Shown piece by piece: positions 5,926 through 38,960 of a DNA stretch of 64,000 bases. Under the pieces are notes generated by a model. The model was not told the DNA's origin, did not search any database, and was given only the letters and a program-made list of their open reading frames with translations. The stretch spans positions 1,280,935 through 1,344,934 of the forward strand of contig OZ242303.1 of the NCBI GenBank assembly GCA_965207945.1, in the 5' to 3' direction. Numbering within the stretch: position 1 is the stretch's first letter; each line of letters starts with the position of its first letter. The position numbers were made by a program, and so were the translations under genes. This DNA comes from Gammaproteobacteria bacterium. GTDB lineage: Bacteria > Pseudomonadota > Gammaproteobacteria > CBDBNL01 > JAAOII01.

Positions 5926-8900
5926 TGGATAAAAACTTCAACTCAAAAGAAATAGAAGCGCGCTGGTCTAAATACTGGGAGGATGAGGACTTGTTTGCCC
6001 CCTCTGGAACTGGCGAGCCCTACTCCATAGTCATCCCTCCTCCCAATGTTACTGGCACTCTACACATGGGGCACGCCTTCCTCAACACCATCATTGACAC
6101 CCTCATCCGCTACCAACGGATGAATGGCAAAAACGTGTTGTGGCAGATGGGCACCGACCACGCCGGCATAGCCACTCAGATGGTAGTGGAAAGACGACTC
6201 GCAGCGCAAGGCAAAGACAAACGGGATATGGGAAGGGAAAAATTCTTAGCGGAAGTGTGGAAGTGGAAAGATATGTCATCGGGCACCATAGAAAAACAAC
6301 TACGCCGACTTGGCGCCTCAGTGGATTGGAAAACCAGCAGGTTCACTATGGACGATGCCTACATCAACTCGGTTATTGAAGCATTTGTGCGCCTACACGA
6401 GAAGGGCTTGGTGTATCGCAGCAAACGTCTGGTTAACTGGGACCCAGTCCTACAAACCGCAGTATCCGATTTAGAAGTGCGCGCCGTAGAAGAACCCTCT
6501 ACCCTATATTACATCCGTTATCCGTTCGTAGACGACCCTACTAACAAATCCTGCATGGTCATATCAACCACCCGACCAGAAACAACCCTGGCGGACGGCG
6601 CAGTTGCCGTCCACCCCGATGACGAACGTTATAAATCAGCGGTAGGCAGAATGGTGCGTGTCCCCGGCACCGACAGAATCATCCCCGTAATAGCCGATGA
6701 ATATGTAAAACCCGACTTCGGCTCCGGCTGTGTAAAAATAACTCCAGCACACGACTTCAACGATTACGAAGTGGGTCAAAGGCATACCATGGAAACAATA
6801 AACCTATTCACCAAAGACGCCCACCTCAACGAAAACGCCCCGCCCGCCTACAGAGGCATGGATAGATATGAAGCCCGCACCAAGATTGTGCAGGACTTCA
6901 AACAACAAGGACTCCTCGCAAAAGAAGAAAAGCACAGCTACAGCCCACCACGTGGCGACCGCAGTGGCGTTATATTGGAGCCGTATCTAACCGACCAATG
7001 GTTCATCAAGATGGACACCATGGCACAGCGCGCCATCAAGGCAGTGCAGGACGGCGAAACAAAGTTCGTCTCACCAATGTGGGAAAAAGTATATTACAAC
7101 TGGCTCAACGAAATCCAGGACTGGTGCGTAAGCCGCCAACTATGGTGGGGACACCGCATCCCCGCTTGGTATGATGAGGACGGCAAGCCGTATGTGGGAC
7201 GCAGCCAAGAAGAAGTGCGCGCCAAACACAACCTTGATAGCAGCGTGAAACTGCGCCAGGACGAAGATGTGCTTGATACCTGGTTCTCCTCAGCACTATG
7301 GACTTTTGCCACCATGGGCTGGCCCCATGAAAGTGGCGGGAATGAAAGCGGCGGAAAAGAAAACAACAGACAACAAACCTTCAACCCCACTGATTTATTA
7401 GTAACTGGTTTTGATATTATCTTCTTCTGGGTAGCAAGAATGATTATGGCAACCCTATGCCTAAAAGACGAAGTCCCCTTCCGCAATGTCTACATCCACG
7501 GACTAGTGCGCGACGGCGAAGGACAAAAGATGTCTAAATCCAAAGGGAACATCTTAGACCCTCTGGATATTATTGACGGAGTTGAACTGGAAGAACTACT
7601 GCGCAAACGCACCACAGACATGATGCAGCCAGACAAAGAAAAATCCATAGCCGCCGCCACCAAGAAACACTTCCCCGATGGCATCGCCGAACACGGCACC
7701 GACGCCCTAAGATTTACCTTCTGCGCTATGGCATCAACTGGACGCGACCTCAACTTTGACACATCCCGCTGCATCGGCTACCGCAACTTCTGCAATAAAC
7801 TATGGAATGCAACTCGTTATGTCCTGATGCAGTGCACAGATGCAGACAGAATGGCTGCCACAGACAAACCAACAGGCACCTCCAATATCATTGACCAATA
7901 CATGCAATGGCATTTTGAAATAGTCACCACTGAAATTAGAAATTCACTGGACAACTACCGTATTGACCTAGCAGCCCAAGCCCTCTATGAGTTTGTATGG
8001 CACGAATTCTGCAACTGGTACATCGAATTCACCAAACCAATCTTAGCAGGCGATGACGAACAAGCAAAAGCATCTACCAAGCAAGGACTACTAAGCATGT
8101 TAGACAACATTCTGCACTTAGCCCATCCCTTTATTCCCTTCATCACCGAAGAGACATGGCAACACCTGCATGCAGGGAATAAAAGTAAAAGTGTAAAGAG
8201 CATTATGGTGAGCCAATTCCCACAACATGCTCCCAAAAGTACTGAAGAAATAGATAAAGGAAATAAAAAATTTGCCGCAGTCGCCTGGATGAAAGAGTTC
8301 CTTCAAGGAGTTCGTGTTCTACGCAGTGAATTAAACATCTCCCCCAGCATCTCACTGGAGTTAATATTAGTTAGCGATGATAAAAATGAAGCACGATGGT
8401 TGGAAGAATATGCAGACATAATAAAGCCAATAATCAAATGCAATAAGTTAAGCTCACTAACAACTACTTCTACTAAAAAACCAGCAGCAATAGCCCGCTT
8501 AGCAGGAAAAGGCGAGGTCTTGATGCCAATAACGGCAAACAATCGACCGGGCATCAACAGAGAAGAAGAAGAAAAAAGATTACGGAAAAAGCTTACTATT
8601 GCTGAAGAGAATATCGTCAAACTCAACAACAAACTCAACAACAAAGGATTCACCAATAAAGCTCCTGACAACATAGTTAAAGGAGTTGAAAGAAAACTAG
8701 AAGAACAGGAAGACGCCTGGAATAAAATTAGCACGCAACGTATAGATTTTATAAAAGCTATGAACTCTCTTGATAAAGACAAGGATACTGTCCACGATAA
8801 TGTTGCAGATATGCTCAAGAAAGCTTCACAGATTCCAATAAATTATGCAGATATGCTCAATAATATTTCGCAGACTCAAAAGAATTATGCAGATATGCTC

Positions 8901-11117
8901 AAGAATATTTCGCAACCTCCAATGAATTATGCAGATATGCTCAATAATATTTTGCAGACCCAAAAGAATCATGCAGATATGCTCAAGAATATTTTGCAAC
9001 CTCCAATGAATTATGCAGATATGCTCAATAATATTTTGCAGACCCAAAAGAATCATGCAGATATGCTCAAGAATATTTCACAACCTCCAATGAATTATGC
9101 AAATATATTCAAGAATATTTTGCAGACTCAAAAGAATCATTCAGATATGCTCAAGAATATTTCGCAAACTCCAATGAATTATGCAGATATGCTCGATAAT
9201 ATTTCGCAGACTCGAAAGAATGCAGCAAATATACACAAGAACGTTTTACAGGCTCAAAAGAATGCTGCAGATCATGCCAAGAAAAATACTAAGATTCACA
9301 GCGATGATGCAGAGTTTTATTATAATCAAGGTCTTGCTAAATATACATCAAAAGAGTACAGAGGGGCTATTGACGATTTCACTAAAGCCATTAAAATTAA
9401 ATCTAATCATGTAAACGCTTACTATAATCGAGCCACTACAAAAAGTAAATTAAAAGATTATAAAGGTGCTATCGAGGATTTAACTAAAGCCATTAGGATT
9501 AAACCTAATAATGCACATGCTTACAATAATCGCGGCTACGATAAGTATGAATTAAAAGATTATAAAGGAGCTATTGATGATTTCACTAAAGCCATTAAGA
9601 TTGAACCTAATAATGCTACTGCTTACTATAATCGTGGAAATACTAAAAATCAATTAAAAGATTATCAAGGAGCTATCGATGATTATACTAAAGCTATTAA
9701 GATTGAACCTAATAATGCAAACTATTACTATAATCGTGCTAACACCAAAAGTCAATTTAAAGATTATAAAGGTGCCATTAAAGATTTTACTAAAGCTATT
9801 AAGATTAACCCTAAGAATGCGGATACTTACAATGATCGCGGTGGTGTTAAGAATGAATTAAAGGATTATAAAGGAGCTATAAAAGATTTTACTCAAGCTA
9901 TTAAGATTAACCCTAATTATGCATATCCTTATTATAATCTGGGCATCATTAAAACTAAATTAAAAGATTATAACAGCGCTATTGATTACTTAACTAAAGC
10001 TATAAAGATTAACCCTAAGCATTCACATCCCTATTATAATCTGGGCATCATTAAAACTAAATTAAAAGATTATAAAGGAGCTATTGATTACTTTACTCAA
10101 GCTATTAATTTTGATATCAAAAATGTAAATGCATATTATAATCGTGGTAATGCCAAATTAAAATTAAAAGATTATAAAAGTGCTATTAATGATTATACTG
10201 AAGTCATTAAGATTGATCCCAAAAACGTAAATGCTTACAATAATCTTGGTATGACTAGATATCAATTAAAAGATTACAAAGGTGCTATTAATGATTTAAG
10301 TCAAGCAATTAAGATTAAACCCAAACTTGTAGAATCTTACAATAACCGCGGAAACATTAAAAATCAGTTACACGACTATAAAGGAGCTATTGATGATTTC
10401 ACTAGTATTATTGAGATTGAACCGAATGATGTAGATGCTTACTATAATCGCGGTAATGCCAAATTAAAATTAAAAAATTATAAAAATGCTATCATTGATT
10501 ATAGTAATGCCATTAAGAATAATCCTAACTATGCGTATGCTTATATTAATAGAGGCTCAGCCAAATCTGAATTAGAGGATTATAAGGGCGCAATTAATGA
10601 TTATACTAATGCTATTAAGATCAAACCAAAACTTGCAGCAGGTTATAATAATCGTGGAAATACTAAAGGTAAACTAAAGGATTATAGAGGTGCTATTGAT
10701 GATTTCACTAATGCCATTAATATTGAACCAAATAATGCAGATACTCACAGCAACAGAGGAAAGATTAAAACTCAATTAAAGGATTACAAGGGTGCTATTG
10801 ATGATTATACCAACGCTATTAATTTTAATCCAAATAATGCAGATTTTTATAATAATCGTGGAGCCGCTAAATTTGAACTAAAAGAATATCAAGGGGCACT
10901 TGATGATTATAATAAAGCTATTGAGCTTGCTTCTAACAATGCAGTTGCTTATTATAATCGAGGTGAAGTTAAAGACAAATTAAAAGATTATAAAGGTGCC
11001 ATTAAAGATTGTCAACAAGTGATAGAGCTAACTGAGGGTAGGGATTTAATAGACGAAGAAATTAAAGTCCGCAAGTTAGCCCAAGAACTCCTACAAGAAT
11101 TACAAAGTAAGAAGTAA
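5925..11117 (+). CDS. valS: valyl-tRNA synthetase fused in frame to a 14-aa tandem-repeat array and about 17 TPR repeats (1730-aa ORF)
   Basis: Class I aaRS HMGH (PPPNVTGTLHMGHAF) and KMSKS motifs, and a ValRS C-terminal coiled coil ending about aa 945 (...RIDFIKAM). There is no stop there. The frame continues through about 10 copies of NYADMLNNISQTQK / NYADMLKNISQPPM and then 34-aa TPR units (AYYNRGNAKLKLKDYKGAIDDYT..). GC drops sharply at the junction. Confidence 0.8.
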   Translation: MDKNFNSKEIEARWSKYWEDEDLFAPSGTGEPYSIVIPPPNVTGTLHMGHAFLNTIIDTLIRYQRMNGKNVLWQMGTDHAGIATQMVVERRLAAQGKDKRDMGREKFLAEVWKWKDMSSGTIEKQLRRLGASVDWKTSRFTMDDAYINSVIEAFVRLHEKGLVYRSKRLVNWDPVLQTAVSDLEVRAVEEPSTLYYIRYPFVDDPTNKSCMVISTTRPETTLADGAVAVHPDDERYKSAVGRMVRVPGTDRIIPVIADEYVKPDFGSGCVKITPAHDFNDYEVGQRHTMETINLFTKDAHLNENAPPAYRGMDRYEARTKIVQDFKQQGLLAKEEKHSYSPPRGDRSGVILEPYLTDQWFIKMDTMAQRAIKAVQDGETKFVSPMWEKVYYNWLNEIQDWCVSRQLWWGHRIPAWYDEDGKPYVGRSQEEVRAKHNLDSSVKLRQDEDVLDTWFSSALWTFATMGWPHESGGNESGGKENNRQQTFNPTDLLVTGFDIIFFWVARMIMATLCLKDEVPFRNVYIHGLVRDGEGQKMSKSKGNILDPLDIIDGVELEELLRKRTTDMMQPDKEKSIAAATKKHFPDGIAEHGTDALRFTFCAMASTGRDLNFDTSRCIGYRNFCNKLWNATRYVLMQCTDADRMAATDKPTGTSNIIDQYMQWHFEIVTTEIRNSLDNYRIDLAAQALYEFVWHEFCNWYIEFTKPILAGDDEQAKASTKQGLLSMLDNILHLAHPFIPFITEETWQHLHAGNKSKSVKSIMVSQFPQHAPKSTEEIDKGNKKFAAVAWMKEFLQGVRVLRSELNISPSISLELILVSDDKNEARWLEEYADIIKPIIKCNKLSSLTTTSTKKPAAIARLAGKGEVLMPITANNRPGINREEEEKRLRKKLTIAEENIVKLNNKLNNKGFTNKAPDNIVKGVERKLEEQEDAWNKISTQRIDFIKAMNSLDKDKDTVHDNVADMLKKASQIPINYADMLNNISQTQKNYADMLKNISQPPMNYADMLNNILQTQKNHADMLKNILQPPMNYADMLNNILQTQKNHADMLKNISQPPMNYANIFKNILQTQKNHSDMLKNISQTPMNYADMLDNISQTRKNAANIHKNVLQAQKNAADHAKKNTKIHSDDAEFYYNQGLAKYTSKEYRGAIDDFTKAIKIKSNHVNAYYNRATTKSKLKDYKGAIEDLTKAIRIKPNNAHAYNNRGYDKYELKDYKGAIDDFTKAIKIEPNNATAYYNRGNTKNQLKDYQGAIDDYTKAIKIEPNNANYYYNRANTKSQFKDYKGAIKDFTKAIKINPKNADTYNDRGGVKNELKDYKGAIKDFTQAIKINPNYAYPYYNLGIIKTKLKDYNSAIDYLTKAIKINPKHSHPYYNLGIIKTKLKDYKGAIDYFTQAINFDIKNVNAYYNRGNAKLKLKDYKSAINDYTEVIKIDPKNVNAYNNLGMTRYQLKDYKGAINDLSQAIKIKPKLVESYNNRGNIKNQLHDYKGAIDDFTSIIEIEPNDVDAYYNRGNAKLKLKNYKNAIIDYSNAIKNNPNYAYAYINRGSAKSELEDYKGAINDYTNAIKIKPKLAAGYNNRGNTKGKLKDYRGAIDDFTNAINIEPNNADTHSNRGKIKTQLKDYKGAIDDYTNAINFNPNNADFYNNRGAAKFELKEYQGALDDYNKAIELASNNAVAYYNRGEVKDKLKDYKGAIKDCQQVIELTEGRDLIDEEIKVRKLAQELLQELQSKK
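8841..9290. repeat. 42-bp coding tandem repeat array (about 10.5 units, two alternating variants, 84-bp higher-order period)
   Basis: Repeat unit aattatgcagatatgctcaa(t/g)aatatttcgca(g/a)(a/c)c(t/c)c(a/c)aa(a/t)g seen directly. It lies inside the valS-TPR ORF. Confidence 0.85.
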
Positions 11118-11179: not shown

Positions 11180-13990
11180 TCACCTTATCAATCTCAGCAA
11201 TTTCTTTATATCTTTTCTAGCAAAATTTATAAGTTGTAGATTAATCATATCTTTTAACTCTTCATTTTTATATCTTGCTTTCATAAATTTAACTAATTTT
11301 TTATTATCGTTATTCTCTAGAATATAGACAAGAATATCGCGGATTTTATTCGAAATTATAGATATATTTTTCCCTTCATCCAAAAAGAAAAATTCATAGA
11401 TATATAAGAGATTATCTGTGTATTCTGTTTTAGCAAATAAATCACTTTCAAATTTTTTCATAAAATTTATATTTTCTACTACATTCAATCTAAGTAATCC
11501 CTCATAAAACATCTCTCTTATGTCACTATTATTATTAACTAAATCCCTTATTGGTGAATAAATATGTATATGAGAAAATAGGACTCTACAAGTTTCAATA
11601 AAAAAATTAACCATATTCCTTAAATAATTTTTATTATTTTTAATAATATCTGTATATAAAAAATTAGTGGAGACGCCACCATCATCATAAATTTTATGGT
11701 GTTTAAATAAAAATAGAATTAATTCCTGTATTAGAATAGGGCAACCATATATTCCTGATTTTGGTGTTTTTTCAAGTAACTTTGTAATATATAAAATTAA
11801 CTGATCTATAGCCTCGCATAAAGAATCTATATTATCAAAATTATTAAATCTTGGGATATCTAAATTACTTTTATCAAATGAGGGTATAAGTTCTCCTGCT
11901 GATACTAATTCATTATTAAATAAATAATGTAATTCTTTATAAAAGTCATTAAGATATATTATGTTATTTTCATTAATAAACGCAATATCAATACCATCAA
12001 TTATAAAAGTAATAATATTTTCTATTTCTAAAGATTTTAATTTATTCTTTTTAATAGTTTCTTTATTATTCTTACCATATAAATAATTAACAGTCCTATT
12101 ATCACAATGAAATTTATAATATGTTGTATATAAGGTTCCCAATTTATTTCTAATAAAATCATCATTTAAATTATTAATAAACGATTCTAATCCATAAATC
12201 CAAATATAACTATAATTATCAAATTTAGATCTAAAATTTTGAGACAATAAATATTCGACAGACCATAATTGGTAAAATTTATCATAAGATAATTTAAGTA
12301 AATAGTCTAAACCAAACTTATTATTAGAAGCCATAAATTGAAAGAAATAATCTAATTTATCTGGATTAATATTATCGATTACTTCAAATGAATTAAGGTC
12401 AAAAACACTTCTAATCTTAGTTAGTTGACTACTATTTAATTCCCTTATATTATGCACTTCTAAAATAGTTTCAAATATTTTCACAGCGCTAGTGTTAAAA
12501 GTTCCTCTTTGTAATTCTTTATTAAATTCTTCAATTAAATATATAATCATATCATCAAAAAATTCTGGATTATTATTAAGATATATATTTAAATTCACGT
12601 AATCTAAATTATTAATTAAATCAATTAATTCTTGTGATACTAACGAAGCGCTATCAATATTCCTTATTATTTTCTCTACTATAAAAATATCCGATTGCTC
12701 AATAATCCTTCCTACTCTATGAAAAAATATCTGTTGCTCATCTCCGATATAGTATTTTAATTGTTTAATCTTATACGGATAATTACCTATCCTACTATAT
12801 AAATCTAACCACTCCTCTCTAATTATTAACAATATTGTTATTAAACTCTGATTATTCTCTACAAATCGATTACTTGTTTTACTTTCTACAAATTTAAGTT
12901 CCACCATCAAATTATTTAAAATTTTTATAATCCTTCTTGGGTTAGCGGCATATTCTTTTGCAATGATATCTACTGTATGTGGATTTAAACCTAAACTATA
13001 AATCATATTTAATTTATTAATATATGTAAATAAGTCAATATCTTTAAAATACTTAATATTAATAGCTACATTAAAAAACCTATCCAAAAACTCTTTTGAT
13101 TCTTTTATACTAGAATTAATATTCTCTTCATTAATATTATTCCTGATAATTAAGTTCTTCATAAGTAATTCATCATCAATAGGAACTAGAAGTATTACAC
13201 CATTTTGATTAGATAGAAAATTTTTAACGTTAGTTAAAAGTTCATAAGATTTTTCACTATCACATCTATCTATGTTATCAATAACAATAACAATTTTATC
13301 AAACTTACCTGAAATTAACAAATCTGAAGAGTTACCATTTAATAATTTATTCAGTAATTCTTTAATAGAATGTTCAAATTGCTCAGGAGCAAAAAATTTA
13401 TTATGTTTAATAGTTTTTTTATATATATTAGAAGAATTATCTATAACTTTGTATACAATTAAAATAACTATTGGTATTAACGTAAAAATAGTGACGTCTC
13501 CAAGAGTAATATTTAATTCTATACCTATTAGTTTTAGTAAATAATATATGCTTACTAATAACATGACTGGTATCAATGCAAGAGTAACTATATTTTTTAT
13601 AATACTCTTGATGGTGAATTCTTTATCTGTTATTTCTACTGTTTTATCTTGGTACAGATCATAATTTTCATCAAGGTCATCAGGATTTAAAAAATTTTGT
13701 AACTTTAATAAAAATATTTTTTTAAATGAATCTCCGGAATACTTCCAAGCATCATATACAATAAATTTAAATTTTTGATTTCCTTTATCTTTTTTGTGTT
13801 CTAACTCTTCTTTGACAGTTTTTACTATTGAGGACTTTCCTGTACCCCACTTACCAAATAAACCTATTGTGTATCCCTCCCTAGATGATAAAATCATCTC
13901 TTTAATGGTATTGGCATATCTTTTTGTTTCTAATAAATCTTTATCATTTAGATTTATTTCCTCATCAGGAATAAAATTTATCTTTTTCAT
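11180..13990 (-). CDS. KAP-family P-loop NTPase (936 aa)
   Basis: Walker A LFGKWGTGKSS followed by FIVYDAWKYSGD (KAP signature FDAWKYxxD). Two hydrophobic TM helices are inserted in the NTPase domain (IVTLALIPVMLLVSIYYLL...IFTLIPIVILIVY), as is typical for KAP. Very AT-rich. Confidence 0.75.
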   Translation of the reverse strand: MKKINFIPDEEINLNDKDLLETKRYANTIKEMILSSREGYTIGLFGKWGTGKSSIVKTVKEELEHKKDKGNQKFKFIVYDAWKYSGDSFKKIFLLKLQNFLNPDDLDENYDLYQDKTVEITDKEFTIKSIIKNIVTLALIPVMLLVSIYYLLKLIGIELNITLGDVTIFTLIPIVILIVYKVIDNSSNIYKKTIKHNKFFAPEQFEHSIKELLNKLLNGNSSDLLISGKFDKIVIVIDNIDRCDSEKSYELLTNVKNFLSNQNGVILLVPIDDELLMKNLIIRNNINEENINSSIKESKEFLDRFFNVAINIKYFKDIDLFTYINKLNMIYSLGLNPHTVDIIAKEYAANPRRIIKILNNLMVELKFVESKTSNRFVENNQSLITILLIIREEWLDLYSRIGNYPYKIKQLKYYIGDEQQIFFHRVGRIIEQSDIFIVEKIIRNIDSASLVSQELIDLINNLDYVNLNIYLNNNPEFFDDMIIYLIEEFNKELQRGTFNTSAVKIFETILEVHNIRELNSSQLTKIRSVFDLNSFEVIDNINPDKLDYFFQFMASNNKFGLDYLLKLSYDKFYQLWSVEYLLSQNFRSKFDNYSYIWIYGLESFINNLNDDFIRNKLGTLYTTYYKFHCDNRTVNYLYGKNNKETIKKNKLKSLEIENIITFIIDGIDIAFINENNIIYLNDFYKELHYLFNNELVSAGELIPSFDKSNLDIPRFNNFDNIDSLCEAIDQLILYITKLLEKTPKSGIYGCPILIQELILFLFKHHKIYDDGGVSTNFLYTDIIKNNKNYLRNMVNFFIETCRVLFSHIHIYSPIRDLVNNNSDIREMFYEGLLRLNVVENINFMKKFESDLFAKTEYTDNLLYIYEFFFLDEGKNISIISNKIRDILVYILENNDNKKLVKFMKARYKNEELKDMINLQLINFARKDIKKLLRLIR

Positions 13991-28010: not shown

Positions 28011-28122
28011 GTGTAAGATTTATAGATAATTAATGGTATTATCATACCATTAAATAAAACTTTCTTTCAGCAAAATTAACCTATAACACAATAGATATGA
28101 TATTACACAAAAATGTATCATA

Positions 28123-32815: not shown

Positions 32816-32820
32816 AGCGT

Positions 32821-34554
32821 CTATTTATTACTTTCCATTCCAAACACTTTCCTAAATTGTTGGATGAGTTCATTCTCTTTACCACCTGTACCACGAAGAT
32901 ACTCATGTAATAAAGGATAGATGCAATCTACCCATATTTTATTTCTAACCTCATCAAGAGTTAAATTATTTGGATACTTCATATTCATCAGATATGCATG
33001 TCCTATTTGATAGTCAGAACCAAGCAGCTCCGTATTTGTAATTTCTTTATTAAGAAACTCAAGATTTTCTGCTAATCCAACCCAATCTTGTTTTTTCTTT
33101 GCCAGATCCTGCTTTAGAATATCAATATTAGGCACAACTTCTTCCCAATGGAATCTTCTGCGCAGAGCGAAATCAAAACTTTCAATACTGCGGTCAATAG
33201 TATTCATAGTACCAATTAGACGAATATTAAATGGAATAAAGAATTGGTATCCCAACTCATTGTTAAACATACCTGTTTCTTTATCATTAAGGGTTGAATA
33301 TTGGGTTTTGATAACACCCTTTACACCCCGATATTCCAGACAATACATTAACTCTCCAAGAACTCGTGAAAGTTCTGCCCTATTAATTTCATCTATTATG
33401 AAGTAAAAAGGAGGGATGGCATCTATAAGTAATATAGAAGAATCTCCTATATCAAAAATATATTTCCAATGATTTTCTTTTTCTGTTAACCTACTTTTGC
33501 TATTCTCAATGTCTTTGATTGTAAGTGAACTGAAATTTTGGTTTTCACATATTTTGTGATTATAAATGTCAAGTTCCCATTTACTAGCTTTTATACAGAA
33601 ATCCTTGAATACCCCGTTTTGTAACCTAAGTTGAGTCGCTTCATTTTTATCTGGCACAGGCCGCAAACCTTCCATAAAATCTTCATAACTAAACGAAGGA
33701 TGAAACTGAACAAATTCATGCTGCTCTGCATACATATAGTAACTTGTTGGCGCAAATTTCTTTTTCCATTCATTAAAGTGTGATTCGGCCTGTTTCTTAG
33801 CTTCGTATGTCTTACCAGTTCCAGGAGGACCATATTTAATCACTTGATTTTTAATGGCGAATATATCTTTCATATTTTCATTTTGGGTTGTCGTATCGTT
33901 ATAAGGAGCTACTATATTTTTTTCAGGGTTTTCTATATGTTCATTTAAGCGCCAAACAAACATACTTAAATAAAATTCATCTGTCTTTTCATTTTCTAAT
34001 TCATTCTGAAGTTTTTCTCTAATTTCTTTCATTAGAAATTGATTTCTTGCGAACCATTCTCGGGATCTGTTATTACGACCTGTATTATAAGGATATTCAG
34101 ATATCATTTTTTCCTTCATTAACCATTTAAATACTGCATCAAATTTTTTAACACTAACTGTAGTAGATACCCCAAGGGTACTTGCTGCAGCTATCCTATT
34201 AATCAATAAATGATTCTGTTTACCTTTCCAATTTTTATAAAGTTCATGATAAGTATTCTCTGTTGGATTTTTGATAAGAGACTCAAGGGCAGACATAAAA
34301 TTATCATCCTTAATAAATGAGTTAAATCTCTTAGGTAGTAAACCCGATTGTTTGCAACTAGCAATTCCGTTATCTCTAGTTTTAATTAATTTATCTAAAA
34401 AATCTTTATCCTGCTTCCATGATTCATCTTTATTAATAGTGTAATGAACATGATTAAAAAAATTTTTGTAATTGTTGTACCAAATATTAAATCCTTTGTT
34501 ATCCTTGTCAACAAGACTTTCATAATAATGTTTTAATTTGTTTTCCATAATCAT
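32821..34554 (-). CDS. mcrB: McrB-like AAA+ GTPase with an unusual approx. 215-aa N-terminal (putative DNA-reader) domain
   Basis: Walker A VIKYGPPGTGKTY and the McrB hallmark FYFIIDEINRAELSRVLGELMYCLEYRG. The N-terminal domain is homologous to the ORF at 38073-38822. Confidence 0.8.
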   Translation of the reverse strand: MIMENKLKHYYESLVDKDNKGFNIWYNNYKNFFNHVHYTINKDESWKQDKDFLDKLIKTRDNGIASCKQSGLLPKRFNSFIKDDNFMSALESLIKNPTENTYHELYKNWKGKQNHLLINRIAAASTLGVSTTVSVKKFDAVFKWLMKEKMISEYPYNTGRNNRSREWFARNQFLMKEIREKLQNELENEKTDEFYLSMFVWRLNEHIENPEKNIVAPYNDTTTQNENMKDIFAIKNQVIKYGPPGTGKTYEAKKQAESHFNEWKKKFAPTSYYMYAEQHEFVQFHPSFSYEDFMEGLRPVPDKNEATQLRLQNGVFKDFCIKASKWELDIYNHKICENQNFSSLTIKDIENSKSRLTEKENHWKYIFDIGDSSILLIDAIPPFYFIIDEINRAELSRVLGELMYCLEYRGVKGVIKTQYSTLNDKETGMFNNELGYQFFIPFNIRLIGTMNTIDRSIESFDFALRRRFHWEEVVPNIDILKQDLAKKKQDWVGLAENLEFLNKEITNTELLGSDYQIGHAYLMNMKYPNNLTLDEVRNKIWVDCIYPLLHEYLRGTGGKENELIQQFRKVFGMESNK

Positions 34555-34693
34555 TTATACAACATATCTAACATGATGTCAAGTTATGTAATTCCTTTTT
34601 AGTTACTCCAGTAAAATAATGCAATATTAAATAAAGAGTAAATCAAGTTCACACATACTATATTACTTGTACATAGAATTAGACAGATTAAGA

Positions 34694-34699
34694 TATAAT
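34694..34699 (+). promoter_or_regulatory. putative -10 hexamer (TATAAT) 7-8 nt upstream of the leader-ORF ATG
   Basis: gatataat is conserved in both FRG-TPR upstream regions (34692-34699 and 36444-36451) with the same spacing to the uORF ATG. This suggests a leaderless or near-leaderless transcript. Confidence 0.3.
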
Positions 34700-34706
34700 A
34701 ACAAAA

Positions 34707-34766
34707 ATGAATTATTCTACCAAAATATATAAAAAGGTTCTGCCAGCAACCACCCTACTTCCTTGA
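34707..34766 (+). CDS. 19-codon upstream leader ORF (MNYSTKIYKKVLPATTLLP) whose TGA overlaps the TTG start of FRG-TPR 1
   Basis: ATG 34707, stop TGA 34764-34766, main ORF TTG at 34763 (TTGA overlap). The paralogous copy is at 36458-36517. Confidence 0.35.
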   Translation: MNYSTKIYKKVLPATTLLP

Positions 34767-36418
34767 GTTATATTCAAGATACTGGAAGTAATGCACCAGT
34801 AGTTAATTCCGTTTCAGAGTTTCTTGCATGCATTAATGATATTATAAAATATAACAATGACCAGGGAAGTAAATTTTTGTTTAGAGGTCAAGAGAACGAA
34901 GAGTGGGAGATGGAAACATCTGCTTATAGGCGTCTAAAAAGAGAATCCAACGATAATCAAGTATCAGAAGGAGAGGAATTGTATTACAATCTTGGATTAA
35001 TACAACAATTTAGACATGCAGATTTCCATAGCAAGTACTCATCAGAAATAATGCAGCAGGACTTAGGTATTTTAGCTCAACTACAACATATGGGAGCTGC
35101 AACCTCATTAATTGATTTCACTGATAACGCAACAACTGCTTTATGGTTTGCTTGTAAAAAAAGTATAAACTCAGATAGTAATCATAATAATGGCAAGGTA
35201 TTTATTTTATTTGCAGGTGGCGAACATAATTTTGAAGAGATTGATAGTTTAGAACAAATAAAAAATTCTAGAGTAAGATTTCCTAAACAATTAGAATTTG
35301 CTAAAGAAAATAATATATTAAACAATGAAAAGTTAAACTATTGGAAACCAGCGCATCTTAATAATCGCATTACTGCTCAGCAATCTTATTTTTTAATAGG
35401 CAAAAGAGAACCACCAAAAATGCAAGAAATAGTTATAGCAGGAGCTTCAAAAATTGATATGTTAGAAGAGCTATCATTAGTACATGGAATTGAGCGAACG
35501 ACATTATTTCCAGATTTAGTTGGTTTTGCGCAGGCAAATTCTGTAGATTCAGCTTACGGCAAAGAAGAAAAACTGTTAAGAAAGAGAAATATTATTCGCC
35601 ATCACGATGAAATTATTGAACAAAGCCCTGAAGATCTCGGAGCTTATAGTAATCGAAGCATTGCTAAGTACAATTTGGGGGATTACGAAGGGGCTATTGA
35701 TGATTTTACCCAAGCTATTAATATTGACCCAAAGAATGCAAATGCTTACAATAATCGTGGTTACATTAAATATCAAATAGAACGTTACAAAGATGCTACT
35801 GATGATTTCAATGAAGCTATTAAGATTGACCCAAGCACTGCATTATTTTATAATAATCGCGGTAATCTTAAATGCACGTTAAAAAAATATCAACTTGCTG
35901 TTAATGATTACAATGAAGCTATTAAAATTGAATCAAATAATGCATTATTTTATAACGGTCGCGGACATGCTAAGCGTGGATTAAAAGATTATAAAGAAGC
36001 TATTAATGATTTTACTAAAGCTATTAATATTGACCCGAATGATGTAAATTCTTACAACGAACTCGGAAACACTAAACTTAAATTAAAAGATTATAAAGAA
36101 GCTATTAATGATTTTACTAAAGCTATTGAAATTGATCCAAAGAATGCAAATCTTTACTATAATCGTGGTATGACTGAATATGAATCCAAAGATTATAAAG
36201 AAGCTATTAATGATTTTACTAAAGCTATTGAAATTGATCCAAAGAATGCAAATGCTTACCATAGCTCTGGTAAAGCTAAACTTGAGTTAAATGATTATAA
36301 AGAAGCTATTAATGATTATGAAACAGCACTGAAGCATAGTATAGACAAAGATTTAACTGAGGATATAACTCTAGACCTTGAGGATGCCCAGGACACTTTT
36401 AGAGAACGTACAAGGTAA
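34763..36418 (+). CDS. FRG-domain protein fused to C-terminal TPR repeats (paralog 1)
   Basis: KFLFRGQENEEW and LGILAQLQHMGAATSLIDFTDNATTALWFA match FRG-domain (PF08867) consensus motifs (FRGQ; QHyGlPTrLLDWT). The C-terminus has about 8 TPRs. There is no in-frame ATG before the FRG motif, so it starts at TTG 34763. Confidence 0.7.
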   Translation: MSYIQDTGSNAPVVNSVSEFLACINDIIKYNNDQGSKFLFRGQENEEWEMETSAYRRLKRESNDNQVSEGEELYYNLGLIQQFRHADFHSKYSSEIMQQDLGILAQLQHMGAATSLIDFTDNATTALWFACKKSINSDSNHNNGKVFILFAGGEHNFEEIDSLEQIKNSRVRFPKQLEFAKENNILNNEKLNYWKPAHLNNRITAQQSYFLIGKREPPKMQEIVIAGASKIDMLEELSLVHGIERTTLFPDLVGFAQANSVDSAYGKEEKLLRKRNIIRHHDEIIEQSPEDLGAYSNRSIAKYNLGDYEGAIDDFTQAINIDPKNANAYNNRGYIKYQIERYKDATDDFNEAIKIDPSTALFYNNRGNLKCTLKKYQLAVNDYNEAIKIESNNALFYNGRGHAKRGLKDYKEAINDFTKAINIDPNDVNSYNELGNTKLKLKDYKEAINDFTKAIEIDPKNANLYYNRGMTEYESKDYKEAINDFTKAIEIDPKNANAYHSSGKAKLELNDYKEAINDYETALKHSIDKDLTEDITLDLEDAQDTFRERTR

Positions 36419-36445
36419 CTCTTCTAAAAACAATAAATAGTAAGA

Positions 36446-36451
36446 TATAAT
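36446..36451 (+). promoter_or_regulatory. putative -10 hexamer (TATAAT) upstream of the second leader ORF
   Basis: Same conserved gatataat context and spacing as copy 1. Confidence 0.3.
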
Positions 36452-36457
36452 AATAAA

Positions 36458-36517
36458 ATGAATTCTTCTACTAAAACATATAAAAAGGTTCTTCCTCCAA
36501 CCACTCTACTTCTTTGA
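36458..36517 (+). CDS. 19-codon upstream leader ORF (MNSSTKTYKKVLPPTTLLL) whose TGA overlaps the TTG start of FRG-TPR 2
   Basis: ATG 36458, TGA 36515-36517, main TTG 36514. It is 15/19 aa identical to copy 1. Confidence 0.35.
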   Translation: MNSSTKTYKKVLPPTTLLL

Positions 36518-37986
36518 GTAATAATAAGAACAATGGGTCCGTTGAGAATGTTAAAGATTTTCTTGAACACATCAACAAAATTGTAAAGCCAGAAACTCAA
36601 AAGGCAAGCAAAGTTTTATTTAGAGGGCAAGAGAGTGCAGAGTGGCCAATAGAAACATCTGCTCATAGACGTTTAAGAGGAAAATCAAATGAAAAAATAA
36701 TATCAGAAGAACAAGAACTATATTACAATATTAGATTAATAGAACAGTTTAAACATGGGGATTTCCATAGTCCTAATTCATCAGAAATGATGAAAAATGA
36801 CTTAGGTATTCTAGCCCAATTACAACATCAGGGAGCTGCTACTTCATTAATTGATTTCTCGGATAATCCTTTAGTCGCTTTATGGTTTGCTTGCCAAGAA
36901 AGCCCAAAATCGGTTAGTGATCATAATGGACAGGTATTCATTCTATCTACAAGTAGTAATAAATATAATTTTGAAGAGATAGATAGTATTGAACAAATAG
37001 AGTATTATAAAGTAAGTATTCCTGATCAATTACACAATCCTAAGATAGATGGTATATTGAACGACCCTACGTTCTTCTATTGGAAACCAGCACATCTTAA
37101 TAACCGTATTACTGCCCAGCAATCATATTTTTTGATAGGCAAAAGAAAACTCCCAGAAATGGAAAAAATATCTATAGAAGAAAATTCAAAATTTAATATC
37201 CTAAAAGAGTTATTATCAGTATATGGGATTAATGAAGTAACGCTATACCCCGATTTAGTCGGTTTTGCGCAAGCAAATTCTTCACGTTCATCTTATGACC
37301 AAGAGACACAAAATGAAACACAAAAATTTATATATAAAAAAAGTATTTTTCGCCTAAATAAAAAGATCAAAGAAAACTCTGAAGATTATGATTCTTATAG
37401 CAAACGAGGGGTTGCCAAATATAAATTGGATGATTATAAAGGTGCTATTGATGATTGGAGTGAAGTTATCAAGGTTAATCCAAATAATGCAACTATTTAC
37501 TATAATTGTGGGGTCGCTAAGGGTAAATTAAAAGATTATAAAAGAGCTATTGATAATTATGATAAAGCCATTAAGTATAATCCAGATTATGCAGACGCTT
37601 ACAATAATCGTGGTGATGCAAAAGATCAATTAAAAGATAATAAAGGCGCTATGGATGATTACAATAAAGCTATTAAGATTGATCCAAACCATGCAGATGC
37701 TTACAATAATCGTGGGGCAGCTAAATATGAATTAAAAGATAATAAAGGTGCTATGGATGATTACAATAAAGCTATTGAGATTAATCCAAATTATGCAACT
37801 GCTTACAATAATCGTGGCGATGCTAAAATTAAATTAGAAGATTATAAAGGCGCTATTGATGATTATCAAACAGTTTTAAAACATAGTAAGGATACAAACT
37901 TAACTGAGATTGCAAATAAAAATATTAAGCTAGGCAAGGCAAAATTAAAGGAAGTACAGAATAAATTTTCTAAAGATAAGAAGTAG
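36514..37986 (+). CDS. FRG-domain protein fused to C-terminal TPR repeats (paralog 2)
   Basis: KVLFRGQESAEWPIETSAHRR and LGILAQLQHQGAATSLIDFSDNPLVALWFA, then about 6 TPRs. Starts at TTG. Confidence 0.7.
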   Translation: MSNNKNNGSVENVKDFLEHINKIVKPETQKASKVLFRGQESAEWPIETSAHRRLRGKSNEKIISEEQELYYNIRLIEQFKHGDFHSPNSSEMMKNDLGILAQLQHQGAATSLIDFSDNPLVALWFACQESPKSVSDHNGQVFILSTSSNKYNFEEIDSIEQIEYYKVSIPDQLHNPKIDGILNDPTFFYWKPAHLNNRITAQQSYFLIGKRKLPEMEKISIEENSKFNILKELLSVYGINEVTLYPDLVGFAQANSSRSSYDQETQNETQKFIYKKSIFRLNKKIKENSEDYDSYSKRGVAKYKLDDYKGAIDDWSEVIKVNPNNATIYYNCGVAKGKLKDYKRAIDNYDKAIKYNPDYADAYNNRGDAKDQLKDNKGAMDDYNKAIKIDPNHADAYNNRGAAKYELKDNKGAMDDYNKAIEINPNYATAYNNRGDAKIKLEDYKGAIDDYQTVLKHSKDTNLTEIANKNIKLGKAKLKEVQNKFSKDKK

Positions 37987-38072
37987 TTAAATTATGTCTT
38001 TTAGTGGTGGTGGTTTAGCTAAAATTTAAAGGGGTGAGTTATTGTAGAGGATTGTATATTATCTTATAGTTC

Positions 38073-38822
38073 TTATTTTTTAAGATGGAAGGATTCACTG
38101 TATTTGTATAGATACCAAACAAAGTGACTTAAAAATATTTCATCTGTCGTACCACTTTTTAGTTCGTCTTGGAATTGTTGTTTAATTTCTTTCATTAGAA
38201 ATAGGTTTTTCCTAAACCATTGTTGGGACTCAGTGTAATGACTATCGTCAGGATGATATTGCTCAATCATTTTTTCTCTAATTAGCCAATCAAATAGAGG
38301 GTTAAATTTTTGTATATCCACTGTTGTGGATACTTCAGTTGTGCTGGCTGCCGCTGTGCGGAGAATTCTTATTAGATTATTAGATCCTTTTTCTTCTTTC
38401 CAAATTTTTTCAAAACGCTGAAGAGTAATATCTGTTGGATTTAAGATTAGTTCTGTAAGGGCAGACATAAAATTATCACTTCCGATAAATGAATGGAATT
38501 GTTCCTTTGATAACATTGACTGCCCGCATGAAGCAATACCATTATTTTTTTTGTAAAGTAACTCCTCTAAAAATTCTTCATTTTCTCCCCATGAGTGATT
38601 CCCAGTTTTAATGAGATTTCTTATTCTTTTGAGTTTACCAAATAAATATTTATGTTGGCCGTACCAATATTTAACGCTTTCTATGCCTTCTATCTCTTCC
38701 CTTTCCATGCGTTGGTTAACGAGGCGTTCGTAAAGTAATTTTAATGTAGTTGTCATGTTTATATTATAGTGTATTTTAATGATATGAGTATAGCGATGGC
38801 TTGTTGTAAGTTCAAAGTCCAT
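38073..38822 (-). CDS. free-standing homolog of the McrB N-terminal domain (no AAA+ module); likely start at internal Met (38756)
   Basis: Aligns with McrB residues about 60-215. NNGIASCGQSMLSKEQFHSFIGSDNFMSALTELILNPTD..RILRTAAASTTEVSTTVDIQKFNPLFDWLIREKMI..FLMKEIKQQFQDELKSGTTDEIFLSHFVW is similar to DNGIASCKQSGLLPKRFNSFIKDDNFMSALESLIKNPTE..RIAAASTLGVSTTVSVKKFDAVFKWLMKEKMI..FLMKEIREKLQNELENEKTDEFYLSMFVW. Confidence 0.65.
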   Translation of the reverse strand: MDFELTTSHRYTHIIKIHYNINMTTTLKLLYERLVNQRMEREEIEGIESVKYWYGQHKYLFGKLKRIRNLIKTGNHSWGENEEFLEELLYKKNNGIASCGQSMLSKEQFHSFIGSDNFMSALTELILNPTDITLQRFEKIWKEEKGSNNLIRILRTAAASTTEVSTTVDIQKFNPLFDWLIREKMIEQYHPDDSHYTESQQWFRKNLFLMKEIKQQFQDELKSGTTDEIFLSHFVWYLYKYSESFHLKK

Positions 38823-38835
38823 TTATTCATATAAC

Positions 38836-38960
38836 GCGAGTATCCCGATGGTGCATTGCAAGAGTTAGATATTTTGCGGGCGGAGCATGGCTCCGCCCCT
38901 ACAGACCATCATTCCAAGGATTTAGACATCATAGGTGTTTACCATTGCAAGAATTTATAC
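38836..38960. mobile_element. REP/MITE-like palindromic element, copy 1 (island right boundary)
   Basis: Core ttttgcgggcggagcatggctccgcccctacagacc (38872-38907) with an imperfect GCGGGCGGAGC/GCTCCGCCC palindrome. Flanked by a cattgcaaga direct repeat (38854 and 38947). Confidence 0.6.

What the first reader, a model, noticed from the sequence alone, without database searches (positions are those of the whole stretch)
8800..38960. 30-kb AT-rich defence island between valS and cca with no integrase or transposase
From about 8.8 kb to 38.85 kb the sequence is much more AT-rich than the flanking core genes. It consists almost entirely of defence-type genes: 2 KAP NTPases, a GmrSD-like enzyme, an OLD nuclease, a type III-like R-M with duplicated mod, McrBC and FRG-TPR genes. 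No recombinase is visible. The right edge is marked by a REP/MITE-like element. This is the accessory region in which to look for new systems.
Basis: partly seen in the sequence, partly recalled or inferred. Interest (0 to 1): 0.55.

Follow-up and report, generated by a model that had tools for sequence, protein, structure and literature searches.

The report
Defence-gene hotspot between valS and cca
A 30-kb AT-rich block of anti-phage genes lies between two tRNA housekeeping genes of a probably sponge-associated bacterium; relatives carry other defence genes or nothing there, so it is an ordinary defence hotspot, except that valyl-tRNA synthetase is fused in frame to an ~800-residue repeat tail.

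Summary
GC falls from 0.43-0.47 in the flanks to 0.29 between about 8.75 and 38.83 kb. The gene calls are right: two KAP NTPases, GmrSD, an OLD nuclease, a type III R-M with two mod genes, McrBC and two FRG-TPR genes. There is no recombinase, no tRNA target and no flanking repeats. Comparison settles its nature. Three more distant relatives have valS and cca tail to tail, 20-104 bp apart, which is the empty site. Five near-identical relatives (flanks 94-99% nt) carry different AT-rich defence cargo at the same place. Identity decays in the core genes as they approach the island, and the valS 3' third falls into three allele classes. This points to turnover by homologous recombination, not by a mobile element.

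Three corrections apply. First, valS has no stop at about 8.75 kb. It reads on to 11117 as a 1730-aa ValRS-TPR fusion, which recurs in relatives and is under purifying selection. A sister genome has a CCA-TPR fusion instead. Second, the alpha/beta-hydrolase gene at 19425-20624 is core-like and splits the island in two. Third, the REP-like element is a dispersed repeat, not an island marker.

Verdict: a new member of a known kind, with one real curiosity, the TPR fusions.

The parts
5925..8750 (+). valS core (ValRS, about aa 1-942). It has intact HIGH-type (HMGH) and KMSKS motifs, an anticodon-binding domain and the C-terminal coiled-coil arm. The last third, from about 7800, is the left recombination border.
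   Evidence: Pfam tRNA-synt_1, Anticodon_1 and Val_tRNA-synt_C. Sequence. Identity to relatives drops from about 97% to 74-82% after about 7800.
8751..11117 (+). In-frame C-terminal extension of ValRS. It consists of a linker, about 11 copies of a 14-aa (42-nt) tandem repeat at 8804-9283, 17 perfect 34-aa TPR units (aa 1129-1706) and a capping helix. GC is 0.305.
   Evidence: No stop codon between 5925 and 11117. TRF. TPR register. Orthologous fusions in relatives. dN/dS is 0.31.
11180..13990 (-). KAP-family P-loop NTPase, 936 aa, with a QatA-like N-terminus and no QatBCD partners.
   Evidence: Pfam KAP_NTPase 1.4e-23. PADLOC QatA 4e-15. A 57%-identical orthologue sits at the same position in L081.
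14540..15589 (+). Unknown 349-aa protein with four 29-aa acidic repeats and two predicted transmembrane helices.
   Evidence: Translation. TRF period 87. No significant Pfam, PADLOC or NCBIfam hit.
15834..17621 (-). GmrSD-type type IV restriction enzyme (DUF262/GmrSD_N plus GmrSD_C).
   Evidence: Pfam 2.1e-36 and 4.3e-20. PADLOC Orf5, HEC-06 and mREase_IV.
17800..19302 (+). Short KAP-like P-loop NTPase, 500 aa. It belongs to a family that is expanded in the relatives' islands.
   Evidence: Its own Pfam hits are only weak P-loop matches. Homologues nearly all carry PF07693. L083 has three paralogues and L084 has one.
19425..20624 (-). Alpha/beta hydrolase of the dienelactone-hydrolase family, 399 aa. 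It is a core-like gene conserved across relatives that splits the island in two.
   Evidence: Pfam DLH 2.1e-7. GC 0.42. 95-98% identical in L082, L083 and L091.
20770..22578 (-). OLD-family nuclease (ABC-type ATPase plus TOPRIM), 35 bp downstream of res. There is no UvrD partner.
   Evidence: Pfam AAA_15 4.9e-22 and OLD-like_TOPRIM. PADLOC AriA, Old and GajA.
22613..25618 (-). Type III restriction subunit Res, 1001 aa.
   Evidence: Pfam ResIII 3.5e-16. PADLOC REase_III 2.7e-22.
25620..28010 (-). Type III Mod methyltransferase B, 796 aa.
   Evidence: PADLOC MTase_III 4.9e-229 over its full length. Pfam N6_N4_Mtase.
28123..30411 (-). Type III Mod methyltransferase A, 762 aa. It has the same N- and C-terminal domains as Mod B but a different central target-recognition region.
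   Evidence: PADLOC 7.2e-225. Mosaic alignment: about 68-98% identity per 50-aa window over the N-terminal 400 aa, 22-50% over aa 400-600 and 64% over aa 601-650, then 88-98% from about aa 650 to the end. The final roughly 300 nt are 98-100% identical.
30602..31240 (+). Stand-alone TPR protein, 212 aa, with 5 units of the same TPR family.
   Evidence: Pfam TPR_1 7e-39. Units listed.
31385..32815 (-). McrC-like nuclease subunit, 476 aa.
   Evidence: Pfam McrBC 8.1e-25.
32821..34554 (-). McrB-like AAA+ GTPase, 577 aa, with a non-canonical N-terminal domain of about 230 aa.
   Evidence: PDB McrB GTPases, E 1.6e-32. NCBIfam McrB 3.7e-32.
34763..36418 (+). FRG-TPR protein, 551 aa: an FRG (ART-superfamily) N-terminal domain plus 7 TPR units.
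   Evidence: Pfam FRG 6.2e-17. PADLOC PDC-S15 3.2e-32.
36514..37986 (+). FRG-TPR protein, 490 aa, a paralogue of the previous gene (about 75% nt identity).
   Evidence: Pfam FRG 1.5e-18. PADLOC PDC-S15 6.9e-36. Repeat families D11, D12 and D17.
38073..38822 (-). Unknown 249-aa protein, a stand-alone paralogue of the McrB-like N-terminal domain. It is conserved next to cca in the sister genome.
   Evidence: Repeat families D15 and D16. 54% identical to the 233-aa L085 gene, which is itself 43% identical to aa 3-210 of the McrB-like protein.
38835..38910 (.). REP/MITE-like dispersed repeat with a GC-rich 9-bp hairpin at 38878-38898.
   Evidence: Copies at 47548-47601 and 58000-58075. A copy of the hairpin also lies just after the valS stop in L081.
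39023..40255 (-). cca (CCA-adding enzyme, 410 aa), the right border. It is convergent with valS.
   Evidence: Pfam PolyA_pol, PolyA_pol_RNAbd and HD. Identity to L085 is 84-90% in cca and rises to 93-99% further out.

Best explanation
The region is a chromosomal defence hotspot, not a mobile element. In the ancestor, valS and cca lay tail to tail. In one clade of probably sponge-associated Gammaproteobacteria with genomes of about 1.8-2.1 Mb, the gap between their 3' ends became a depot for AT-rich anti-phage genes.

The cargo is swapped between co-occurring strains by homologous recombination. The recombination is anchored in the conserved flanks (the valS 3' third and cca) and probably in internal conserved sequences (the DLH hydrolase gene and the 102-nt TPR units).

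The cargo genes in this window act as independent barriers:
- Two modification-dependent restriction systems: GmrSD, and McrBC with a novel reader domain.
- One type III R-M whose two Mod subunits carry different recognition domains, so presumably two specificities serve one Res.
- An OLD ATPase-nuclease that is probably co-transcribed with the R-M.
- Two KAP NTPases.
- Two FRG-TPR proteins, each a predicted ART-like NADase effector plus a TPR sensor.

Rearrangement at the island edge fused a TPR array in frame to ValRS in this genome, and to the CCA enzyme in a sister genome.

What is shown: composition, gene families, empty sites, variable cargo, identity decay and allele classes, and absence of recombinase and of att repeats. 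What is inferred: that homologous recombination is the turnover mechanism, the operon structure, and the function of each cargo gene.
For: Empty sites. cca and valS are convergent and 44 bp (L086/L087), about 104 bp (L088/L089, from a sponge metagenome) and 20 bp (L090) apart. These relatives have 64-67% ValRS identity and 65-74% CCA identity to the window.

Variable cargo at the same site. The flanks of the relatives below are 94-99% nt identical to the window.
- L081+L085 is one 1.79-Mb contig with a 25.9-kb island. It carries a KAP NTPase, Gabija-like OLD+UvrD, a type IIG R-M, 4 FRG-TPR genes, a 233-aa gene and cca-TPR.
- L082 carries GmrSD, OLD+UvrD, FRG-TPR and DLH.
- L083 carries 3 short KAPs, FRG-TPR, DLH and a type III mod.
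- L084 carries Mrr, TPR, FRG, FRG-TPR and a GmrSD_N protein.
- L091 carries a KAP of 1143 aa, 2 FRG-TPR genes, DLH and a short KAP.
- The island-side DNA held for five of these loci has GC 0.29-0.31 against 0.45-0.46 for their core (L091 was not measured).

Recombination signature. valS codons 1-620 are 94-97% identical among all six genomes. Codons 621-935 fall into three allele classes that are only 76-82% identical to each other. dS doubles from 0.13 to 0.25 across the same boundary. cca shows the same gradient.

Not a mobile element. There is no integrase or transposase ORF, no tRNA at the borders and no shared border repeats.

FRG is described as an ART-superfamily predicted NADase effector in PMC9503650.
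Against: Homologous recombination is inferred from identity patterns in six loci. No formal recombination test or phylogeny of whole genomes was possible.

A recombinase acting in trans from elsewhere in the genome cannot be excluded from a 64-kb window.

The unknown 349-aa and 249-aa proteins have no assigned function.

None of the cargo genes has been tested for anti-phage activity. PDC-S15 (FRG) is only a candidate system.

5.9 kb of the closest relative's island was not seen.
Confidence: 0.78

Rival explanations
1. The region is a decayed integrative element (ICE, IME or prophage remnant). It inserted once by site-specific recombination between valS and cca and later lost its integrase.
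For: It shows a strong compositional contrast with a sharp right edge. One relative has a 200-aa ORF with a faint IS1595 zinc-ribbon hit in its island.
Against: There is no integrase, transposase, conjugation or phage structural gene. There are no border repeats and no tRNA target. Six genomes with near-identical flanks carry six different cargo sets, which a single insertion does not explain. The left 'edge' is a gradient inside valS.
Confidence: 0.07
2. The region is native and vertically inherited. An ancestral large island was differentially lost in each lineage, and the AT-richness reflects local mutational bias or relaxed selection rather than import.
For: Some modules recur at fixed positions: KAP-936/937 next to valS, the 249/233-aa gene plus FRG-TPR genes next to cca, and DLH in the middle.
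Against: The flanks differ by only 1-6%, while cargo genes are absent or only 30-57% identical. valS 3' alleles differ by about 20% among genomes whose valS 5' parts differ by 3-6%. That requires import of diverged DNA. The outgroups have empty sites.
Confidence: 0.07
3. This is an add-on that does not exclude the best explanation. The TPR tails on ValRS and CCA are functional parts of the immune repertoire. A sensor-type TPR array, of the same family as in the FRG-TPR effectors, would couple a tRNA-charging or tRNA-repair enzyme to detection of a phage product. Examples would be shutting down or protecting translation during infection, or recruiting FRG-TPR proteins.
For: At least three independent in-frame fusions exist. 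ValRS junction type A is in the window, L083 and L084; type B is in L082; and there is the CCA fusion in L085. The ValRS array is orthologous unit by unit between genomes, and its dN/dS is 0.31. Variation among units is concentrated mostly at helix-A positions 2, 3, 9, 10, 12 and 13, with positions 31 and 34 also variable; that these helix-A positions are the usual TPR ligand-contact positions is from my own knowledge. The arrays occur only in the island.
Against: Both fused genes simply have their 3' ends facing a region full of TPR cassettes, so fusions by deletion are expected to arise by accident. Two of the six closest genomes have unfused ValRS, so the tail is dispensable. There is no evidence of interaction or regulation. 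A search of the held papers found no report of a bacterial ValRS-TPR fusion, so there is no known precedent.
Confidence: 0.12

Closest known systems
Core-gene-flanked defence hotspots or 'defence islands' without mobility genes. Examples are the core defence hotspots of Pseudomonas aeruginosa and the integrase-less hotspots of the E. coli pangenome. These examples are from my own knowledge and were not checked in papers here.
   Same: Fixed chromosomal position between conserved core genes. Dense and diverse defence cargo that differs between near-identical strains. Lower GC than the core. No integrase. Elevated divergence of the flanking core genes.
   Different: The lineage (uncultured, probably sponge-associated Gammaproteobacteria with small genomes) and the locus (convergent valS and cca) have not been described as far as I could find. 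A conserved hydrolase gene sits in the middle. Repeat (TPR) cassettes from the island are fused to the flanking housekeeping genes.
Type III restriction-modification systems (EcoP15I type).
   Same: A Mod of the N6_N4_Mtase class with the recognition region between the DPPF motif and the FxGxG motif. A Res with a helicase-type ATPase. The order is mod then res.
   Different: There are two tandem mod genes. They share N- and C-terminal domains (98-100% nt identical at the 3' end) but have unrelated central regions. An OLD nuclease gene follows res after 35 bp.
McrBC.
   Same: An McrB AAA+ GTPase core (E 1e-32 to solved McrB structures) followed by McrC.
   Different: The N-terminal 230 aa do not match the E. 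coli McrB DNA-binding domain. A stand-alone paralogue of this domain (249 aa) lies 3.5 kb away next to cca.
PADLOC candidate system PDC-S15 (FRG-domain proteins).
   Same: The FRG domain matches at 1e-32 to 1e-36. FRG is placed in the ART superfamily as a predicted NADase effector (PMC9503650).
   Different: Here FRG is fused to 5-7 TPR units and occurs in tandem paralogues (2 here, up to 4 in a relative). It has not been validated experimentally, to my knowledge.
Integrase-type genomic islands at tRNA or tmRNA genes.
   Same: A compositionally deviant accessory block with an empty site in relatives.
   Different: There is no integrase, no direct repeats and no tRNA target. The cargo is replaced piecemeal.

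Membership tests
Defence island / chromosomal defence hotspot | A cluster of several unrelated known defence gene families | tested here: met
   GmrSD, McrBC, type III R-M, OLD, 2 KAP NTPases and 2 FRG (PDC-S15) genes.
Defence island / chromosomal defence hotspot | Same locus, different cargo in closely related genomes | tested here: met
   Six cargo variants with flanks 94-99% identical.
Defence island / chromosomal defence hotspot | An empty site exists in relatives | tested here: met
   L086/L087, L088/L089 and L090 have cca and valS 20-104 bp apart.
Defence island / chromosomal defence hotspot | Anti-phage activity of the cargo | not testable with these tools
   This needs expression and phage challenge.
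Integrative mobile genomic island | An integrase or recombinase gene | tested here: not met
   No such Pfam hit in any ORF of 100 aa or more. The gaps hold only ORFs under 70 aa.
Integrative mobile genomic island | Flanking direct repeats (att) and/or a tRNA target | tested here: not met
   No shared 11-mer or longer between the borders. The nearest tRNAs are at 560-716 and 51004.
Type III R-M | A Mod methyltransferase plus a Res helicase-nuclease in one operon | tested here: met
   MTase_III 5e-229 and 7e-225; REase_III 2.7e-22; ResIII domain. modB and res overlap by a few bases.
Type III R-M | An endonuclease motif in the Res C-terminus, and cleavage activity | not tested
   Only the ATPase region was matched by the profiles.
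McrBC | McrB GTPase (AAA+) plus McrC | tested here: met
McrBC | An N-terminal DNA-binding domain homologous to E. coli McrB | tested here: not met
   PDB and NCBIfam matches start at about aa 234 and 383. The N-terminus matches only the neighbouring 249-aa protein and its orthologue.
Gabija (GajA+GajB) | An OLD-type GajA next to a UvrD-type GajB | tested here: not met
   The window's OLD gene has no helicase partner. Relatives L081 and L082 do have OLD+UvrD pairs.
Qat system | QatA together with QatB, QatC and QatD | tested here: not met
   There is only a partial QatA-like hit: 61 bits against a cutoff of 600. No QatBCD are nearby.
KAP NTPase family | A PF07693 match | tested here: met
   The 936-aa protein scores 84 bits against a cutoff of 20. 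The 500-aa protein is below threshold itself, but nearly all its homologues carry PF07693.
GmrSD type IV restriction | An N-terminal DUF262 domain and a C-terminal DUF1524/HNH domain | tested here: met
   126 and 72 bits, both above the cutoffs.
Valyl-tRNA synthetase | Class I catalytic core with HIGH and KMSKS motifs, an anticodon-binding domain and a C-terminal arm | tested here: met
   Pfam hits. The HMGH and KMSKS motifs are visible. The 790-aa TPR tail is not a feature of the family.

The most novel reading that the evidence does not exclude
The TPR arrays fused to ValRS (this genome and at least three relatives, with two junction types) and to the CCA-adding enzyme (a sister genome) may not be accidents of island rearrangement. 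They may be selected couplings of tRNA-metabolism enzymes to an immune sensor module shared with the FRG-TPR effectors. That would be a previously undescribed way of wiring translation to phage sensing. More modestly, TPR cassettes may act as promoterless, stop-less C-terminal modules and recombination pads that drive cargo exchange in this hotspot.
Probability: 0.12. Interest if true: 0.75.

Novelty: new member of a known kind. Interest (0 to 1): 0.42.

Why it matters
The locus gives a clean natural example of an integrase-less defence hotspot: empty sites plus six cargo variants, five of them among strains sampled in two related assemblies. It comes from an uncultured, probably sponge-associated lineage with a small genome, where defence turnover is otherwise hard to study.

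It also supplies concrete candidates for testing:
- short and long KAP NTPases;
- FRG-TPR tandem arrays;
- an McrB with a new reader domain and a free-standing copy of that domain;
- a two-Mod type III system.

The ValRS-TPR and CCA-TPR fusions show that island rearrangements can remodel essential flanking genes. If the tails are functional, they would link tRNA enzymes to immunity.

Tried and rejected
- The scan of GTDB species representatives with ValRS found nothing closer than 52% identity. No reference genome of the clade was therefore available.
- Exact look-ups of the window's own CCA and ValRS found no contig on record. The comparison had to rely on relatives found through homologue searches.
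- Cluster look-up returned no organism names.
- A literature search for the sponge-metagenome accessions found nothing. A search for ValRS-TPR fusions found no relevant paper.
- The promoter and terminator scan of 8.4-15 kb was no better than shuffles, so it says nothing about a separate TPR transcript.
- tblastn of the 500-aa NTPase against plasmids gave no match. The PDB search matched only the P-loop.
- I looked for att-like border repeats and found none.
- I looked for RNA elements in the island, such as retron or CRISPR-associated RNAs, and found none.
- I considered that the ValRS TPR array is kept open by gene conversion from the FRG-TPR arrays. I rejected this because its units are orthologous one to one with those of L083 (24-34 of 34 residues), while it is only about 50% identical to the FRG-TPR arrays of relatives.
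- I considered an assembly artefact for the fusion. I rejected this because the fusion recurs in at least four independent contigs.
Full report
OBSERVATION

The compositional claim is correct. In 1-kb windows GC is 0.22-0.37 from 9 to 39 kb and 0.41-0.52 outside. Pooled values are in the table below. Island genes have GC3 of 0.16-0.28 against 0.41-0.60 for core genes. Tetranucleotide distance from the core profile is three to four times higher inside the island. The right edge is a sharp step at 38.8-39.0 kb. The left edge is a gradient that starts inside valS at about 7.8 kb.

| Segment | GC |
|---|---|
| Left flank (1-7800) | 0.473 |
| valS 3' third (7801-8750) | 0.408 |
| 8751-11117 | 0.305 |
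| 11118-38830 | 0.294 |
| Right flank (38831-64000) | 0.433 |

GENE CONTENT

| Coordinates | Strand | Product |
|---|---|---|
| 11180-13990 | - | KAP NTPase, 936 aa, QatA-like N-terminus, no Qat partners |
| 14540-15589 | + | Unknown 349-aa protein with acidic 29-aa repeats and two transmembrane helices |
| 15834-17621 | - | GmrSD |
| 17800-19302 | + | P-loop protein, 500 aa. Its own Pfam hits are sub-threshold, but nearly all its homologues carry PF07693, so it is a short KAP NTPase |
| 19425-20624 | - | DLH-family alpha/beta hydrolase |
| 20770-22578 | - | OLD ATPase-TOPRIM nuclease |
| 22613-25618 | - | Type III res |
| 25620-28010 and 28123-30411 | - | Two type III mod genes |
| 30602-31240 | + | TPR-only protein, 212 aa |
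| 31385-32815 and 32821-34554 | - | McrC and an McrB-like GTPase |
| 34763-36418 and 36514-37986 | + | Two FRG-TPR genes (PADLOC candidate PDC-S15) |
| 38073-38822 | - | Unknown 249-aa protein |
| 39023-40255 | - | cca |

There is no room for a hidden recombinase. Gaps are 550 bp or shorter and hold only ORFs under 70 aa. The island has no tRNA or other Rfam RNA. The two borders share no 11-mer or longer.

The REP/MITE-like element at 38835-38910 contains the hairpin GGGCGGAGC-atg-GCTCCGCCC. It is real, but it is a dispersed repeat. Further copies lie in core intergenic DNA at 47548-47601 and 58000-58075. A copy of the hairpin lies just after the valS stop in relative L081.

COMPARATIVE EVIDENCE

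GTDB species representatives contain nothing closer than 52% ValRS identity. The large protein collection does hold close relatives, and their contigs could be fetched.

Empty sites. Three more distant relatives (ValRS 64-67% identical, CCA 65-74%) have cca and valS convergent with nothing between them:
- L086/L087: 44 bp apart.
- L088/L089: about 104 bp apart. This record is labelled as a sponge metagenome.
- L090: 20 bp apart.

Flanking synteny is conserved on both sides.

Island variants. Five closer relatives have flanks 94-99% nt identical to the window. All carry AT-rich defence cargo at the same place, and the cargo differs.

| Locus | Cargo after valS |
|---|---|
| L081+L085 (one 1.79-Mb contig, island 25.9 kb) | KAP-937, OLD+UvrD (Gabija-like), type IIG R-M, 5.9 kb unseen, four FRG-TPR genes, 233-aa gene |
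| L082 | GmrSD, OLD+UvrD, FRG-TPR, DLH |
| L083 | Three short KAPs, FRG-TPR, DLH, type III mod |
| L084 | Mrr, TPR, FRG, FRG-TPR, GmrSD_N protein |
| L091 | KAP of 1143 aa, two FRG-TPR genes, DLH, short KAP |

The island-side DNA held for L081-L085 has GC 0.29-0.31 against 0.45-0.46 for the core (L091 was not measured).

HOW THE CARGO TURNS OVER

Among the six island-bearing genomes, valS codons 1-620 are 94-97% nt identical. Codons 621-935 split into three allele classes that are only 76-82% identical to each other:
- window, L083 and L084;
- L082;
- L081 and L091.

Sliding identity falls from about 97% to 74-82% after about 7800. dS between the window and L083 doubles from 0.13 to 0.25 at the same point. 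cca shows the mirror gradient, 84-90% rising to 93-99% further out.

There are also no mobility genes and no att repeats. Together these are the expected signature of island replacement by homologous recombination with cross-overs in the flanking core genes. This is an inference; no formal recombination test could be run.

An internal anchor also exists. The DLH hydrolase gene has core-like GC (0.42) and is 95-98% identical in L082, L083 and L091. L083 carries extra fragments of it next to a short KAP gene. The '30-kb island' is thus two variable segments, 8.75-19.4 kb and 20.65-38.83 kb, around a conserved gene.

Some modules keep their position. KAP-936/937 sits next to valS. The 249/233-aa gene plus FRG-TPR genes sit next to cca.

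THE UNEXPECTED PART: TPR FUSIONS

valS does not stop where ValRS normally ends. The frame runs from 5925 to 11117 and encodes 1730 aa, made up of:
- a complete ValRS with HMGH and KMSKS motifs, anticodon-binding domain and coiled-coil arm;
- a linker;
- about 11 copies of a 14-aa tandem repeat (42-nt period, 8804-9283);
- 17 perfectly phased 34-aa TPR units and a capping helix.

The fusion is not an artefact. Proteins of 1581-1873 aa with the same architecture occur in relatives (P0002-P0005, P0121, P0122). Three of them were seen in genomic context.

The window, L083 and L084 share one junction type (…LDKDKD…DAEFYYNQG). L082 has another, in which the coiled coil runs straight into a TPR unit. 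L081 and L091 keep the ancestral stop.

Window units 4-17 match L083 units 7-20 one to one, with 24-34 of 34 residues identical. dN/dS over the array is 0.31. The array is therefore an old, translated, moderately constrained domain. It is not kept open by conversion from the FRG-TPR genes, since it is only about 50% identical to the FRG-TPR arrays of relatives.

In the sister genome whose ValRS is unfused, the CCA enzyme on the other border carries three TPR units at its C-terminus (P0131, 529 aa).

The same 102-nt TPR unit family occurs about 31 times in the window, and only in the island. It is found in the ValRS tail, the 212-aa TPR protein and both FRG-TPR genes, at 60-81% nt identity.

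The economical reading is as follows. Both housekeeping genes point their 3' ends into a region rich in TPR cassettes, and deletions or recombination occasionally fuse a cassette in frame. The tail is dispensable, because two of the six genomes lack it, but it is tolerated and then maintained.

A functional coupling of tRNA enzymes to a sensor-type TPR array is not excluded. I rate it at about 0.12.

OTHER DETAILS

The two Mods are mosaics. Over the N-terminal 400 aa they are about 68-98% identical per 50-aa window. Identity is 22-50% over aa 400-600 and 64% over aa 601-650, the stretch between the DPPF and FxGxG motifs where the recognition region lies. It returns to 88-98% from about aa 650 to the end, and the final roughly 300 nt are 98-100% identical. 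This suggests two specificities serving one Res, with gene conversion or recent duplication at the ends.

modB and res overlap, and OLD follows res after 35 bp, so mod-mod-res-old is probably one operon. This is an inference.

The McrB-like protein matches solved McrB GTPases from about aa 234 onward. Its N-terminal domain of about 230 aa is unrelated to E. coli McrB. It has a free-standing paralogue, the 249-aa gene next to cca.

FRG is described by Aravind and colleagues as an ART-superfamily domain and predicted NADase effector of prokaryotic immunity (PMC9503650). That fits an effector-plus-TPR-sensor architecture for the FRG-TPR genes.

COMPARISON WITH WHAT IS KNOWN, AND VERDICT

The region behaves like the integrase-less, core-gene-flanked defence hotspots described in other bacteria (from my own knowledge). 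It meets every criterion of that category that could be tested here, and it fails the criteria for an integrative mobile island.

The individual systems are members or variants of known families. The window's OLD is not Gabija, because it has no UvrD partner. The KAP-936 is not a Qat system, because QatBCD are absent.

The island is a new member of a known kind in an under-studied lineage. Its value is as a source of test candidates and as a tidy example of hotspot turnover. The ValRS-TPR and CCA-TPR fusions are the only feature a specialist would find surprising.

Noticed in passing
window 5925-11117 (+): valS has no stop at the normal ValRS end. It encodes a 1730-aa ValRS fused to a repeat linker and 17 TPR units. 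The fusion recurs in relatives with two different junction types, and dN/dS of the tail is 0.31.
   Followed up: yes
L085 10001-11590: In the sister genome whose ValRS is unfused, the CCA-adding enzyme at the other island border carries three C-terminal TPR units (529 aa against 410 aa here).
   Followed up: partly
window 8804-9283: A tandem repeat of 42/84 nt (14-aa unit, NYADMLKNISQ...). There are about 11 copies, up to 90% identical, forming the linker between ValRS and the TPR array. A diverged version is present in L083 and it is absent in L084 and L082.
   Followed up: partly
window 7800-8750, compared with L081-L084 and L091: The 3' third of valS exists as three deeply diverged allele classes (76-82% nt identity) in genomes whose valS 5' two-thirds are 94-97% identical.
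   Followed up: yes
window 25620-30411 (-): The two tandem type III mod genes share near-identical N- and C-terminal domains (the final roughly 300 nt are 98-100% identical) but have unrelated central recognition regions. No simple-sequence phase-variation tract was found.
   Followed up: partly
window 38073-38822 (-) and 33860-34554 (-): The 249-aa ORF next to cca is a free-standing paralogue of the non-canonical N-terminal domain of the McrB-like GTPase. An orthologue (233 aa) sits next to cca in L085.
   Followed up: partly
window 19425-20624 (-); L083 20104-21303 and 23134-23751: The DLH-family hydrolase is core-like in GC and 95-98% identical across relatives. L083 carries additional fragments of it, which suggests it serves as an internal recombination anchor.
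   Followed up: partly
window 17800-19302 (+); relatives' contigs: The short (about 400-500 aa) KAP NTPase family is strongly expanded in this clade, with up to five paralogues on one 47-kb contig and three in L083.
   Followed up: partly
window 14540-15589 (+): A 349-aa protein with four 29-aa acidic repeats followed by two transmembrane helices, divergent from the KAP-936 gene. No family match. Only its first 50 aa are shared with a 122-aa ORF in L082.
   Followed up: partly
window 38835-38910, 47548-47601, 58000-58075; L081 12970-12988: A dispersed REP/MITE-like intergenic repeat built around the hairpin GGCGGAGC-N3/4-GCTCCGCC. It is found in core intergenic regions and at island borders.
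   Followed up: yes
window 45834-46044 (-): A 9-nt periodic repeat, apparently encoding a His/Asp-rich stretch, inside the ORF that corresponds by position to the ZnuA-family gene of relatives.
   Followed up: no
window 42671-43748 (-): Two tandem paralogous ORFs (about 70% nt identity) that correspond by position to the YHS-domain genes of relatives.
   Followed up: no
window 560-716 (+): tRNA-Val(TAC) and tRNA-Asp(GTC) lie 5 kb upstream of valS. They are not at the island border.
   Followed up: no
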